Shown: piece by piece, positions 22,947 to 25,504 of the stretch
Position numbering within the stretch: the first letter of the stretch is position 1
How the letters are laid out: each line of letters begins with the position of its first letter
Origin: a virus
IMG/VR virus record: IMGVR_UViG_3300038316_000169
Length of the DNA: 46,330 nucleotides
Reading direction: 5' to 3' (one strand)
Made by a program: the position numbers and the translations under genes
Notes under the pieces: model-generated
Told to the model about the DNA's origin: nothing
The model's input: only the letters and a program-made list of their open reading frames with translations
The model's database searches: none

Positions 22947-25504
22947 TAATTACAAAAGTTAAAAACTTCAAGAAAGGTGTTAAGAAGAGATGGAACGATG
23001 CTGGACACTACGCAGATAATCAGGCATGGTCTAGGTCGTATGCAAGAAAGATTCTTCCAAGCAGGATTGAGGTTTTTGATACAAACCTCATATTTAATCA
23101 GAGGTCCGTAGTCAGGACTCTTGTATGTGGGCTTCCTACAGATACCGGATCGGAGGGCTACCCGCGAGACTTCAGCAGCAAAACAATAGAACAGATCCAG
23201 AACCTAGCGTTTGATGGTGTTAGGGTCCTGATATCTACGGGCCTTATTCAGTTACCGGGAGTCCATACAAAAGAGACACTTGAGCAGGCACATTTCGATG
23301 CAGGGGTTAGGCGACATCAAAACGCCAACGATGGGACTGGAAAAGACGAGCTTGAGCTGATGATGAAAAATCAGGATATCATTCAAAACTATTCTGAGAT
23401 TTATCTCAAGTCTCAGAAGGCTTTTCATGCGTCCTTTGTTGTGGTTCTGCGCGGGCCCGCTGACTTAGTATTCGAGGCTGAGAGCAAGCTGATAAACATT
23501 ATCAGAGGGGAAAATATAGAGGTTACTATTCCTAGCAGGCTTCAGCTTGAGATGTTGCAGACGGCTCTACCGGGGCCAGATACACATCCTCGTTCATGGG
23601 TTGAAGTTCGTTCAGATGGGGCGGCGATCTTATCCAGCGCAACGAATCTGAACAGCCGGACGGATGAAACGGGGATGTATTTTGGAAAGGATATGCTTAC
23701 CAATAACGAAGTATTTTACGATCCAGACAGGCTTGCAGCCAAAACACTGGCTATGTGTGGAGCTACAGGGTCCGGTAAAACATATGCTTATCTGCTGCTT
23801 CTCATGCGGTTGAAGACTCTGAGAGATGCCAGGATAATATATACAACTCCAAAAGCCGATGAAGGAACTAATTATAGGTCTGTGGCGGCTGCCTTTGGAG
23901 ACAATGGCTGTATAGCTGATATAGGTATCAACGGATCGGAATATTTCAACCCTCTTGATATCTTGATTGACCTTGAAAGTATGGGCTTGAATAAGGAAGA
24001 ATTGAAGGGAGCCAGAAAACATATTTTTGAAAATTTATATGATCTGAAAAAGGGGACACTAATAAACGCTCACCGTATCTGGTTAGCCTCTGAGTTTTCC
24101 TCGAATATGGCGAGTTATCTTGACGAGTCACTTGATTATGTGTATGAACAGGCTGGTATTTACAGGGATGATCCGGACAGTTTCACTAATCCAATGCCTG
24201 TATACCCGGCACTTCGGTTTAAGTGGGAGCTTGATAAAGAGAATAAAAACCTTGGAACTAAGCAAAAGACAGCAGAGGCGCTCTACAATAAAACATATCA
24301 GTTCTCCTCAACAGGGCTGTTTAACAGGTACTGTAATCAGACCAAAGGACTGGATCTCAATAAAGACTTCATTATAATAGATATGGCAAACGTCCCAGAC
24401 GAGATTAAAACGTTTATGTCAGTCATTGTAAACGGGGCTATAGCTTCCAGGTTCAGCACTCACAACGAAAGAGAGACCTATCTAGCGATTGATGAAGGCG
24501 GGGTCTACCTTCGGGATAAGCTATTAAGAGAACAGATGCTACAGAGGCTCACGCAGGGTAGGAGTCATAAGTTTTACCAGTGGATTGCAACACATCAGCC
24601 GTCAGACTTCTCAAAGAATGGTGTAGGCGAAGACTTCAGAACAAACACGTATATAAACATTTTAATGGGTAATAATATTAAAAAGTCACTAAATGACGTC
24701 AAAGATTATTTCGAACTCACCGAGAGTGAATGTGGAATCCTGTCAAACTGTCAGGTCGGGCAGGGTCTCTTACTCTTCGGAGATAATGACGATGAAAGAG
24801 TTCCTATCTTTTTTGAGTCCACCGAATGGGAGCACAAAACCATAAAAGGAATAGGATATGAGGACAATAAAACAGTTACTGATAGTGGTTTAACATTTAA
24901 GCGGGAATTTAAGCACCTGATAGCAGACCATAAGATAATACTTTCCGACTGGTTTGAGGGCGACGCATCCGTATTATTGCAACAGGGCTATGAAAAACAT
25001 CCACTTACCAGAGTTGAAAAAAGAGGAACGGTAGCTGGTTTTATGCCGAAAGGATCTGTCAGAAATGGACGGGTAATATTACCGCATTTGGGGGACATGA
25101 AACTAGATCACTTCGCTTCGGTCCTCCAGCTTGAGCCAGTAATGCAGGCTGAAAATTTCGAGGAAATTGCGATAAATCATAATGGGGATGTGGATATTAA
25201 GGGAATGAAAAACGGGAAATGGCTTGGCCTGGAATACGAAATAAAAGGCTCCCATACTACAGAAGAACTGATCGCAAAGAAGGCAGCCGCACTCGGAAAA
25301 GGTATGGTGGTGCGGTTTATTTGCAGTTCTGCGGATTACCCCTTTATCTCAAAAGCGGTAGGGGAAGATTACACGCTTCAAAGAGGGTCAGCCGTTGCTG
25401 ATTTCTTAAAGAATTTTGCGGCGGAAGAAGAGAACGGCGAAGAAGAACCAGATATTCAGGTTCCTGCTGAATCTGGACTGATTACTGATGAATTGGAGGC
25501 TTAA
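22943..25504 (+). CDS. virB4: VirB4-like secretion ATPase with an extra C-terminal domain
   Basis: Walker A GATGSGKT (23759-23782), Walker B LAIDEG, QGRS...IATHQPSDF and GQGLL motifs; long VirB4-type N-terminus. Confidence 0.85.
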   Translation: MIITKVKNFKKGVKKRWNDAGHYADNQAWSRSYARKILPSRIEVFDTNLIFNQRSVVRTLVCGLPTDTGSEGYPRDFSSKTIEQIQNLAFDGVRVLISTGLIQLPGVHTKETLEQAHFDAGVRRHQNANDGTGKDELELMMKNQDIIQNYSEIYLKSQKAFHASFVVVLRGPADLVFEAESKLINIIRGENIEVTIPSRLQLEMLQTALPGPDTHPRSWVEVRSDGAAILSSATNLNSRTDETGMYFGKDMLTNNEVFYDPDRLAAKTLAMCGATGSGKTYAYLLLLMRLKTLRDARIIYTTPKADEGTNYRSVAAAFGDNGCIADIGINGSEYFNPLDILIDLESMGLNKEELKGARKHIFENLYDLKKGTLINAHRIWLASEFSSNMASYLDESLDYVYEQAGIYRDDPDSFTNPMPVYPALRFKWELDKENKNLGTKQKTAEALYNKTYQFSSTGLFNRYCNQTKGLDLNKDFIIIDMANVPDEIKTFMSVIVNGAIASRFSTHNERETYLAIDEGGVYLRDKLLREQMLQRLTQGRSHKFYQWIATHQPSDFSKNGVGEDFRTNTYINILMGNNIKKSLNDVKDYFELTESECGILSNCQVGQGLLLFGDNDDERVPIFFESTEWEHKTIKGIGYEDNKTVTDSGLTFKREFKHLIADHKIILSDWFEGDASVLLQQGYEKHPLTRVEKRGTVAGFMPKGSVRNGRVILPHLGDMKLDHFASVLQLEPVMQAENFEEIAINHNGDVDIKGMKNGKWLGLEYEIKGSHTTEELIAKKAAALGKGMVVRFICSSADYPFISKAVGEDYTLQRGSAVADFLKNFAAEEENGEEEPDIQVPAESGLITDELEA

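What the first reader, a model, noticed from the sequence alone, without database searches (positions are those of the whole stretch)
24870..25504. VirB4 ATPase fused to a C-terminal PD-(D/E)xK-like nuclease domain
Seen: after the ATPase core the protein continues ~200 aa with H....L...F..I.INHNGDVDIKGMKNGKWLGLEYEIKGSH (~25180-25255). Established: a D...E-x-E/K pattern on beta strands is the restriction-endonuclease-like catalytic core. Inference: a nuclease on the motor could process the DNA substrate and explain the missing relaxase.
Basis: partly seen in the sequence, partly recalled or inferred. Interest (0 to 1): 0.72.

Follow-up and report, generated by a model that had tools for sequence, protein, structure and literature searches.

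The report
Nuclease-like domain on viral VirB4 motor
The motor protein of a conjugation-like membrane machine carried by a head-tail virus of methane-producing archaea ends in a conserved domain that looks like the DNA-cutting domain of the bacterial competence protein CoiA, making it a testable candidate for the DNA-processing enzyme that archaeal DNA-transfer systems seem to lack.

Summary

In 58 relatives down to about 22% identity, H723 and D751 are kept in 58, E764 in 57, E766 in 55 and K779 in 57. The lysine of 'EIK' (K768) is kept in only 7, so the motif is D...ExE plus a helix lysine.

No Pfam, NCBIfam or PDB sequence search names the domain.

Profile-profile comparison links the core (residues 711-831) to CoiA-type PD-(D/E)xK nucleases. 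P is about 1e-3, 0 of 200 shuffles reached that score, and the best of 24 negative-control comparisons gave P 0.019. Each conserved residue aligns with a conserved CoiA residue.

The nuclease-like reading is therefore supported at profile level. That it replaces a relaxase is untested. Five relaxase families were not found in five related virus records.

This scan has noted the same fusion before on other DNA. I found no paper describing it. Novelty: new variant of a known kind. Interest 0.62.

The parts
22943..25504 (+). Whole gene: 853-aa VirB4-like ATPase with a C-terminal extension (P0001)
   Evidence: ORF list and translation. NCBIfam conju_CD1110 7.5e-23, CedB 1.3e-8, VirB4_CagE 2.5e-8, all far below their curated cut-offs.
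23648..24838 (+). ATPase core, residues about 236-632. Walker A GATGSGKT is residues 273-280 (nt 23759-23782); Walker B D517-E518 is nt 24491-24496.
   Evidence: Pfam AAA_10 and DUF87. G273, G278, K279, T280, D517 and E518 are invariant in 24 full-length relatives. PADLOC mad8 1.8e-11 over residues 246-615.
24851..24889 (+). Variable linker, residues about 637-649, after the invariant I634-K635-G636
   Evidence: This stretch varies in length and sequence in alignment A3. The invariant columns stop at G636 and resume at W670.
24890..25078 (+). Conserved sub-domain of unknown fold, residues 650-712 (W670, G673, D674, G682, G695, aromatic at 700)
   Evidence: Conservation counts: W670 52/58, G682 56/58, G695 52/58, aromatic at position 700 in 58/58. 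No family match. A winged-helix reading is my guess only.
25079..25438 (+). CoiA-like PD-(D/E)xK nuclease-like core, residues 713-832
   Evidence: hhalign against CoiA/DUF6035 alignments: P 1.2e-3 and 8.7e-4, with 0 of 200 shuffles reaching the score. Mrr_cat P 0.0069 over 93 columns. YraN P 0.023 with D and ExK in register.
25109..25111 (+). H723, first-helix histidine
   Evidence: 58/58. Aligns with the conserved His of the CoiA 'ES..H' helix.
25193..25195 (+). D751, predicted metal-binding Asp (the 'PD' position)
   Evidence: 58/58. Aligns with the D of CoiA 'KPD', of YraN 'EID' and of Mrr 'G.D'.
25232..25240 (+). E764-Y-E766, the (D/E)xK position in its ExE form
   Evidence: E764 57/58, E766 55/58. 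Aligns with ExQ of CoiA and ExK of YraN.
25277..25279 (+). K779, conserved lysine in the helix after the ExE strand
   Evidence: 57/58. Aligns with the conserved Arg of CoiA, which Kosinski et al. 2005 place at the swapped-Lys position of COG4636 (PMC1189080, passage read).
25382..25387 (+). R814-G815, conserved pair near the end of the domain
   Evidence: 56/58 and 58/58. Role unknown.
25448..25501 (+). Acidic, fast-evolving C-terminal tail, residues 836-853
   Evidence: Not conserved. dN/dS 0.29 to 2.0 in three pairs.
18794..22946 (+). Four upstream genes of the same module: small membrane protein 18794-19192, secreted beta-helix protein 19409-20839, polytopic membrane protein 20839-21954, and a 331-aa protein 21951-22946. 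The last three junctions overlap.
Evidence: Same order next to the ATPase in 6 of 8 related loci (L002, L003, L042, L044, L045, L046). In L047 the small-protein gene was not matched, and L043 starts inside the ATPase gene. Pfam and PHROG matches for the beta-helix protein.

Best explanation
The last ~215 residues of this VirB4-like ATPase are a flexibly linked two-part extension. The first part is a small conserved sub-domain of unknown fold (650-712). The second is a ~120-residue core (713-832) that is a distant relative of the CoiA-type branch of the PD-(D/E)xK nuclease superfamily. Its predicted active site is D751, E764 and E766 (a D...ExE variant, as in BamHI, recalled), with H723 on the first helix and K779 on the following helix. 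K779 takes the place of the conserved Arg of CoiA and the migrated Lys of COG4636. Inferred mechanism: the ATPase, assumed to be hexameric like other VirB4/HerA-class motors, docks on the polytopic and 2-TM membrane proteins encoded just upstream. It would thereby hold several Mg2+-dependent endonuclease domains at the cytoplasmic mouth of the channel. These would nick or cut DNA, probably at single-strand/duplex junctions as CoiA does. The cut would create or process the end that the motor feeds through, or receives from, the membrane complex. What is shown: the fusion, its conservation, purifying selection and profile-level similarity. What is inferred: the fold, catalysis, the substrate and the direction of transport.
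For: Fusion and conservation. 21 of 23 close relatives are 830-856 aa. 30 of 93 distant representatives are >=750 aa and carry the domain at their C-terminal end. In 301 genomes of the host class, 14 of 18 matches lie in ORFs >=804 aa. Key residues are kept in 55-58 of 58 sequences, and in L002, L003 and L042-L046. dN/dS is 0.086-0.174.

Homology. hhalign of the core against a CoiA/DUF6035 alignment gives P 1.2e-3, score 26.5. Shuffles reached this in 0 of 100 (single columns, mean 12.0, sd 2.0) and 0 of 100 (10-column blocks, mean 14.0, sd 2.9); the reversed query gives P 0.17. A broadened 21-sequence template that includes Bacillus 'competence protein CoiA family' proteins gives P 8.7e-4, and an independent 9-sequence template gives P 0.0044, both in the same register. 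The protein comparison on untrimmed alignments gives the same alignment at P 0.021. The alignment pairs H723 with H, D751 with D, E764 with E, E766 with Q, S770 with S and K779 with R. These are the CoiA features described in PMC1189080.

Other families. Mrr_cat gives P 0.0069 over 93 columns. YraN gives P 0.023 with D and ExK in register.

Local HMM search. The top 7 non-self hits and 15 of the top 20 are PD-(D/E)xK family proteins, out of 116 such proteins plus 1668 decoy ORFs. In the reverse search, 8 of the top 20 hits are this domain.

Independent leads. Pfam sub-threshold hits to CoiA_nuc in 2 of 39 members and to Cap4_nuclease in 1 of 39. The named language-model neighbours carry Replic_Relax, CoiA_nuc, AHJR-like, PDDEXK_11 and PDDEXK_3 (scores 0.80-0.85).

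Context. The genes are translationally coupled and sit in a conserved membrane module. CoiA and YraN are experimentally shown endonucleases that work with helicases on imported DNA (PMC13663708, passages read).
Against: My crude propensity-based secondary-structure estimate was uninformative.

No curated model reaches threshold. Pfam finds 0 families for the window's domain. A profile search of PDB sequences finds 0 hits at E<=10. The Pfam CoiA_nuc HMM finds nothing at E<=10 in two Methanosarcina genomes that carry the gene or in 5 related virus records.

The hhalign P-values are modest and uncorrected for about 10 templates. Among negative controls the core reached P 0.019 and 0.024 in 2 of 8 unrelated alignments, so the Mrr and YraN matches sit at noise level on score alone. 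PDDEXK_3 (P 0.18) and NucS (P 0.16) show nothing. The Mrr alignment puts the ExE one column off the QxK.

The decoys are six-frame ORFs, many of them not real proteins, which inflates the enrichment. No single hit there is significant; the best E is 0.0058.

Nothing shows that the module transports DNA, and the virus has its own terminase.
Confidence: 0.6

Rival explanations
1. Motor-nuclease for attack rather than transfer. The ATPase-nuclease, anchored at the membrane, reels in and destroys DNA. The target would be either the genomes of competing viruses or plasmids entering the cell (superinfection exclusion) or the host chromosome during lytic growth. This would resemble HerA-nuclease defence complexes.
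For: The ATPase part matches the PADLOC defence model mad8 (1.8e-11) and several HerA defence models, and NCBIfam HerA_antiphage weakly (1.4e-4). One family member hit Cap4_nuclease (0.0021). Motor plus PD-(D/E)xK pairs are common in defence (HerA-DUF4297, recalled, not checked here). The virus already has a terminase and particles for spreading.
Against: The best ATPase match is to conjugative VirB4-like CD1110 (80.7 bits against 42.2 bits for mad8). The gene is always coupled to a polytopic membrane protein, a 2-TM protein, a small membrane protein and a secreted beta-helix protein, in fixed order, inside the virus's structural-gene region. That looks like a core trans-envelope apparatus, not a variable defence island.
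Confidence: 0.18
2. The domain has the nuclease fold but no longer cuts. It would serve as a DNA-binding or partner-binding module that holds the substrate, or a regulatory protein, on the motor.
For: Inactive PD-(D/E)xK domains are known (established knowledge). The canonical lysine of (D/E)xK is absent: K768 is kept in only 7/58. One member (P0046) has N and K at the two Glu positions.
Against: All three acidic residues, the helix lysine and the histidine are kept in 55-58 of 58 sequences across about 22-90% identity. That is the pattern of a working active site. ExE and ExQ variants are active in BamHI and BglII (recalled; BglII is named in PMC1189080).
Confidence: 0.08
3. It is not a PD-(D/E)xK domain at all. 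The profile similarity would be chance plus a short shared motif. The H, H, D, E, E residues would form some other metal site, for example another hydrolase, or a structural site in an interaction domain specific to this ATPase family.
For: No database model or PDB sequence matches. P about 1e-3 is weak for a homology claim. Negative controls reach P 0.02. Two conserved histidines (H723, H746) are not classic PD-(D/E)xK residues.
Against: The match to CoiA is reproduced with three different template alignments and two query alignments, in the same register, and beats 200 of 200 shuffles. Every conserved residue pairs with a conserved CoiA residue, including the histidine. Reciprocal HMM-sequence searches enrich for PD-(D/E)xK proteins and for this domain. 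Two independent kinds of lead pointed to the same clan before the test.
Confidence: 0.14

Closest known systems
CoiA nuclease domain (Pfam PF06054 CoiA_nuc) and the related DUF6035 proteins; competence protein CoiA of Bacillota
   Same: Same order of conserved residues: helix His, then D, then E-x-(Q/E), then Ser, then a basic residue on the next helix, then a hydrophobic strand. CoiA is described as a PD-ExQ variant with a conserved Arg at the swapped-Lys position (PMC1189080). It is a structure-specific endonuclease acting with a helicase on transferred DNA (PMC13663708).
   Different: Here the third residue is E rather than Q, and the basic residue is K rather than R. There is no Cys-rich N-terminal region. 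The domain is fused to a VirB4-like ATPase, in an archaeal virus rather than in Bacillota. The Pfam model does not reach threshold.
VirB4-type ATPases: Gram-positive CD1110 family, TraC, VirB4/CagE, and archaeal CedB/TedB
   Same: The ATPase core with intact Walker A and B is the best family match. It is coupled to a polytopic membrane protein and small membrane proteins, as in Ced/Ted and minimal T4SS (PMC9905601, passages read).
   Different: All curated scores are far below cut-off (80.7 against 325 bits; 32.7 against 643). About 215 residues lie beyond the end of the VirB4 models. The best annotated plasmid and phage matches stop at query residue 614-632. The gene sits in a head-tail virus.
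Motor-nuclease pairs: RadA-CoiA and ComM-YraN in transformation (PMC13663708); HerA-NurA (mentioned in PMC9905601); HerA-DUF4297 defence (recalled)
   Same: A ring ATPase that moves DNA, working with a nuclease that cuts the strand being displaced or fed.
   Different: In those systems the two activities are separate proteins. Here they form one polypeptide joined by a variable linker, and the motor is a membrane-associated VirB4 type.
MOBC relaxases (TraX of pAD1, MobC of CloDF13; Pfam Replic_Relax per PMC5357655)
   Same: They set a precedent that a PD-(D/E)xK-related enzyme can act as the conjugative nicking enzyme without a known covalent intermediate (PMC12857230, passages read). A Replic_Relax-bearing cluster was among the language-model neighbours (share 12%, score 0.85).
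   Different: Similarity was not tested: no Replic_Relax sequences could be obtained, and the family does not hit the related virus records. MOBC relaxases are separate proteins with an oriT-binding function.
Mrr_cat (PF04471) and YraN/UPF0102 (PF02021)
   Same: The whole core aligns end to end with Mrr_cat (93 columns, P 0.0069). D and ExK are in register with YraN (P 0.023).
   Different: The scores are at the level of my negative controls. The register at the ExE strand is one column off for Mrr.

Membership tests
PD-(D/E)xK nuclease superfamily | Restriction-endonuclease-like alpha-beta-beta-beta-alpha-beta core fold | not testable with these tools
The Atlas holds no model. The propensity estimate was uninformative.
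PD-(D/E)xK nuclease superfamily | Conserved Asp, followed 10-30 residues later by (D/E)-x-K or a known variant | tested here: met
   D751 58/58; E764 57/58; E766 55/58, which is the ExE variant. The canonical K position (768) is kept in only 7/58. A lysine on the next helix (K779) is kept in 57/58.
PD-(D/E)xK nuclease superfamily | Detectable profile similarity to accepted member families | tested here: inconclusive
   CoiA-like P 8.7e-4 to 1.2e-3, Mrr_cat 0.0069, YraN 0.023, NucS 0.16, PDDEXK_3 0.18. Noise level in the controls is about 0.02. Accepted families score P 1e-5 to 0.28 against each other. Enrichment is seen in the local HMM search.
Pfam CoiA_nuc (PF06054) | Score at or above the curated gathering threshold (20.3 bits) | tested here: not met
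   0 families for the window's domain at E<=1. 2 of 39 relatives give sub-threshold hits, best E 0.0068. No hit at E<=10 in G001 and G002 or in 5 virus records.
Pfam CoiA_nuc (PF06054) | Motif set H ... PD ... ExQ-S ... R (PMC1189080; alignment A4) | tested here: inconclusive
   All positions are occupied and conserved, but with E for Q and K for R. It is a relative, not a member.
VirB4 / TraC / CD1110 conjugative ATPases | Score at or above the curated NCBIfam or Pfam cut-offs | tested here: not met
   CD1110 80.7 against 325 bits; VirB4_CagE 32.7 against 643; TraC 28.4 against 567; CedB 34 against 700. AAA_10 scores 26.7 against 27.5 for the window protein, but relatives pass (43.6-46.1 bits).
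VirB4 / TraC / CD1110 conjugative ATPases | Intact Walker A and B, and coupling to VirB3- and VirB6-like membrane partners | tested here: met
   The Walker residues are invariant. Overlapping genes for a polytopic membrane protein and a 331-aa protein lie directly upstream and are conserved in related loci. Homology of these partners to VirB6 and VirB3 was not tested here.
Conjugative relaxases (MOBP, MOBQ, MOBT, MOBF, MOBC) | Match to Relaxase, MobA_MobL, Rep_trans, TrwC or Replic_Relax | tested here: not met
   0 of 5 related virus records match at E<=0.1 for each of the five families. The window's larger ORFs show none.

The most novel reading that the evidence does not exclude
The tethered CoiA-like nuclease is the missing DNA-processing enzyme of archaeal conjugation-type machines. 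It would nick or open the DNA at the motor itself, so that a VirB4-like ATPase with built-in nuclease replaces both the relaxase and the coupling protein. A head-tail virus of Methanosarcina would use this minimal machine to pass its genome, or host DNA, directly between touching cells as well as through particles.
Probability: 0.15. Interest if true: 0.88.

Novelty: new variant of a known kind. Interest (0 to 1): 0.62.

Why it matters
[quoted passage not shown] How Ced/Ted-type systems prepare DNA is also open (PMC9905601). A conserved, selectively maintained nuclease-like domain fused to the motor gives a concrete, mutable candidate (D751, E764, E766, K779) for that step.

It also extends the recently shown helicase-plus-nuclease logic of bacterial transformation (RadA-CoiA, ComM-YraN; PMC13663708) to an archaeal membrane motor, in a single polypeptide.

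That the machine is a core part of a tailed virus raises the question of whether such viruses have a second, contact-dependent route of spread.

If the domain proves to be a defence or host-degradation nuclease instead, it would still be a new architecture for a motor-nuclease.

Tried and rejected
Sequence searches that named nothing for the C-terminal domain:
- Pfam and NCBIfam on the 211-aa piece.
- PDB by phmmer and by profile.
- PHROGs and PADLOC on 39 members. The PADLOC mad8 and HerA hits belong to ATPase ends of fragments.
- A profile search of 5.8 billion proteins, which returned only family members.
- ESM Atlas on the whole extension: top scores 0.78, two unnamed archaeal clusters.

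Family comparisons that gave nothing or could not be done:
- PDDEXK_3 and NucS gave no hhalign signal.
- Single sequences of a second CoiA-like ORF (L040) and of a Cap4 nuclease (L075) gave nothing.
- Hjc could not be assembled: 2 of 31 genomes matched, both in 455-aa ORFs.
- Cap4_nuclease: 1 of 101 genomes.
- CoiA_nuc in Bacteroidota: 2 of 101.
- Replic_Relax: 0 of 151, and none in CloDF13. The MOBC comparison was therefore not done.
- Cap4_nuclease hits in G001 and G002 lie elsewhere, not in this gene.

Other checks without result:
- tblastn of the whole protein against annotated phages and plasmids found only 21-25%-identical ATPase parts.
- The terminator and repeat scan downstream showed nothing that looks like an oriT.
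- The Chou-Fasman-style estimate was uninformative.
- I considered the 69-column, P 0.019 match between the core and the protein's own N-terminal domain and treat it as noise.
- My ORF filter did not pick up the L047 and L005 ORFs, so their residues were not checked.

Literature searches for a described VirB4-nuclease fusion or for this virus module found none. Supplementary files were not consulted, and PMC521647 (Iyer 2004) is not held; either could bear on this.
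Full report
WHAT IS THERE. ORF 22943-25504 on the + strand encodes 853 residues. Its start overlaps the stop of the preceding gene, as do the two junctions before that (20839, 21951-21954, 22943-22946).

Residues about 236-632 are a P-loop ATPase of the VirB4/HerA class. Pfam gives AAA_10 at 26.7 bits, just under its cut-off of 27.5, and DUF87. NCBIfam's best match is the Gram-positive VirB4-like CD1110 family (7.5e-23; residues 139-614 against model positions 288-729 of 752). CedB, VirB4_CagE and TraC follow, all far below their curated cut-offs. Walker A (GATGSGKT, residues 273-280) and Walker B (D517-E518) are invariant in 24 full-length relatives.

The stated start, 24870, is one base out of frame.

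IS IT MORE THAN CHANCE. Yes.
- The 211-residue piece alone finds 93 cluster representatives at E<=1e-3 among 1.84 billion proteins. Of these, 30 are >=750 aa and carry the match within about 130 residues of their C-terminus. The other 63 are shorter, and many are probably fragments.
- Of 23 close relatives, 21 are 830-856 aa. One is 1219 aa with an intein, and one is 635 aa.
- In 301 genomes of the host class, 15 have the domain, and 14 of 18 matches lie in open frames >=804 aa.
- In a 58-sequence alignment reaching about 22% identity, the counts are H723 58, D751 58, G815 58, E764 57, K779 57, R814 56, E766 55 and H746 53. K768, the lysine of 'EIK', is kept in only 7.
- dN/dS over residues 650-835 is 0.086 and 0.174 in the two pairs where dS could be estimated. 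The acidic tail (836-853) evolves freely.

The conserved pattern is therefore H...H..D...ExE...K, not D...ExK.

ANATOMY OF THE EXTENSION.
- After the invariant I634-K635-G636 comes a linker that varies in length and sequence (about 637-649).
- Next is a conserved sub-domain (650-712; W670, G682, G695, aromatic at 700) with no match to anything.
- Then comes the core (713-832).
- Last is the acidic tail.

WHAT THE CORE IS. No sequence-to-profile search names it: Pfam, NCBIfam, PHROGs, PADLOC, PDB, and a profile search of 5.8 billion proteins.

Two weak leads pointed the same way.
- Among 39 family members scanned against Pfam, 2 hit CoiA_nuc (best E 0.0068) and 1 hit Cap4_nuclease (0.0021). Both are PD-(D/E)xK families.
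- The named language-model neighbours of residues 712-830 carried Replic_Relax, CoiA_nuc, AHJR-like, PDDEXK_11 and PDDEXK_3, at scores of 0.80-0.85. The tool rates such scores as leads only.

PROFILE-PROFILE TEST. I built alignments of known families from genomes and compared profiles with hhalign in the script box.
- Against a CoiA/DUF6035 alignment (one Bacteroidota ORF that passes the Pfam CoiA_nuc cut-off, plus 12 relatives, 11 of them annotated PF06054), the core scores 26.5, P 1.2e-3, over 69 columns.
- None of 100 column shuffles (mean 12.0, sd 2.0) and none of 100 ten-column block shuffles (mean 14.0, sd 2.9) reached that score. The reversed query gives P 0.17.
- I added nine plasmid proteins, three annotated 'competence protein CoiA family protein' from Bacillus and six proteobacterial DUF6035-like. 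The resulting 21-sequence template gives P 8.7e-4. The nine new sequences used alone give P 0.0044. The register is the same in both.
- The protein comparison on the untrimmed alignments returns the same alignment at P 0.021.

The alignment pairs H723 with the His of the CoiA 'ES..H' helix and D751 with the D of 'KPD'. E764 and E766 pair with the E and Q of 'ELQ', S770 with the following Ser, and K779 with the invariant Arg. Kosinski et al. (PMC1189080, passages read) describe exactly this set for CoiA: a PD-ExQ active-site variant, plus a conserved Arg at the position of the migrated Lys of COG4636.

Other families: Mrr_cat aligns end to end (93 columns, P 0.0069; 0 of 100 and 1 of 100 shuffles). 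YraN aligns D751 with its D and E764-x-E766 with its ExK (P 0.023).

LIMITS OF THAT TEST.
- Against eight unrelated alignments the core reached P 0.019 and 0.024 twice. P about 0.02 is therefore noise, and only the CoiA match clears it.
- PDDEXK_3 and NucS show nothing (P 0.18, 0.16).
- Accepted PD-(D/E)xK families score between 1e-5 and 0.28 against each other. None of them detects the CoiA alignment better than P 0.042. The core is thus closer to CoiA than accepted clan members are.
- About ten templates were tried without correction.
- The curated Pfam CoiA_nuc model does not hit the gene in two Methanosarcina genomes or in five virus records, even at E<=10.

RECIPROCAL PROFILE-SEQUENCE CHECK. 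I searched a local set of 116 PD-(D/E)xK proteins, 58 copies of this domain and 1668 six-frame decoy ORFs. With the core HMM, the seven best non-self hits were four CoiA-like proteins, two YraN and one Mrr. Fifteen of the top 20 were PD-(D/E)xK proteins. With the CoiA HMM, 8 of the top 20 non-self hits were this domain. No single hit is significant (best E 0.0058), and many decoys are not real proteins, so this is enrichment evidence only.

I put the nuclease-fold reading at about 0.8 and an active nuclease at about 0.65.

CONTEXT. The window is a head-tail virus. It has a terminase (5.3e-41), a Mu-F-like head protein, a weak portal match (Portal_Mu, E 0.0072, below cut-off) and an Mtd_N-bearing protein, with IS200/IS605 elements inserted.

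The ATPase is the last gene of a five-gene module spanning 18794-25504. Seven IMG/VR virus contigs and three genome contigs carry relatives. Two of the genome contigs are Methanosarcina; one is a short contig binned as Proteiniphilum. The module order is the same in six of eight loci compared. L047 lacks a match to the first small gene, and L043 begins inside the ATPase gene. In L042 and L047 the module sits between the same head genes as in the window.

In five related virus records, one rated 100% complete at 73 kb, none of Relaxase, MobA_MobL, Rep_trans, TrwC or Replic_Relax is found at E<=0.1. The VirD4 family touches only the ATPase ORF itself. The 'missing relaxase' is therefore real as far as known families go.

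HOW IT MOST LIKELY WORKS (inferred). VirB4-class motors are ring ATPases at the cytoplasmic face of a membrane channel. Here each subunit would carry, on a flexible linker, a Mg2+-dependent endonuclease.

CoiA cuts at 5' single-strand/duplex junctions and nicks the displaced strand of D-loops, in synergy with the RadA helicase. YraN does the like with ComM (PMC13663708, abstract and passages read). By analogy, the tethered domain would nick or trim DNA at the motor to create or process the end that is translocated.

MOBC relaxases show that PD-(D/E)xK-related enzymes can serve as conjugative nickases (PMC12857230; Replic_Relax = MOBC in PMC5357655). I could not test similarity to them.

A defence or host-degradation role is the main rival. 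The ATPase also matches the defence model mad8 (1.8e-11).

NOVELTY. Five literature searches found no description of a VirB4-nuclease fusion or of this virus module. Supplements and Iyer et al. 2004 could not be consulted.

Within this scan the same fusion has been noted repeatedly on other DNA. Follow-ups on DPANN archaeal VirB4 proteins also named CoiA_nuc as the closest family. I read those notes after my own CoiA result. They are unchecked AI notes and not independent evidence.

VERDICT. This is a new architectural variant of known parts. Interest 0.62.

Noticed in passing
window 10025-11521 (+): A 498-aa ORF starts with an Mtd_N domain (major tropism determinant N-terminal domain, 9.3e-14). 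This hints at a diversity-generating retroelement target in this archaeal virus. No reverse transcriptase or template repeat was looked for.
   Followed up: no
window 4320-5447 (+), 13248-14348 (-), 30218-31381 (+), 28909-29364 (+): Three TnpB-like ORFs (OrfB_IS605 + Cas12f1-like_TNB) and one IS200-type TnpA lie inside the virus genome. A 395-aa ORF (13269-14456, +) runs antisense over one TnpB and has no family match.
   Followed up: no
P0007 (1219 aa), P0082 (1259 aa); Methanosarcinia genomes: Some homologous ATPases carry a LAGLIDADG homing-endonuclease intein inside the ATPase. Five 1075-1135-aa open frames with the domain in host-class genomes may be the same.
   Followed up: partly
window 19409-20839 (+): The secreted beta-helix protein inside the module matches PHROG tail-spike families (2.6e-17) and pectate-lyase-like Pfam families. 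This is an envelope-degrading type of protein within a T4SS-like operon.
   Followed up: no
window 23678-24787 (residues 246-615 of P0001): The ATPase part matches the PADLOC model mad8 of the MADS defence system (1.8e-11). This is a link to defence-type motors that I did not explore.
   Followed up: no
window 27204-27233: An exact tandem duplication of a 15-nt unit lies at the start of ORF 27211-27522.
   Followed up: no
L001 (JAQWDW010000104.1, 4979 nt): An 88%-identical copy of the ATPase gene lies on a 5-kb contig binned as a Proteiniphilum (Bacteroidota) genome. This is probably a binning error, given that all other hosts are Methanosarcina.
   Followed up: no
P0044, P0072, P0076, P0086 (260-278 aa): Short proteins carry the nuclease-like core behind unrelated N-terminal regions, some coiled-coil-like, with no ATPase remnant. 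They may be stand-alone forms of the domain. Their contigs could not be inspected.
   Followed up: partly
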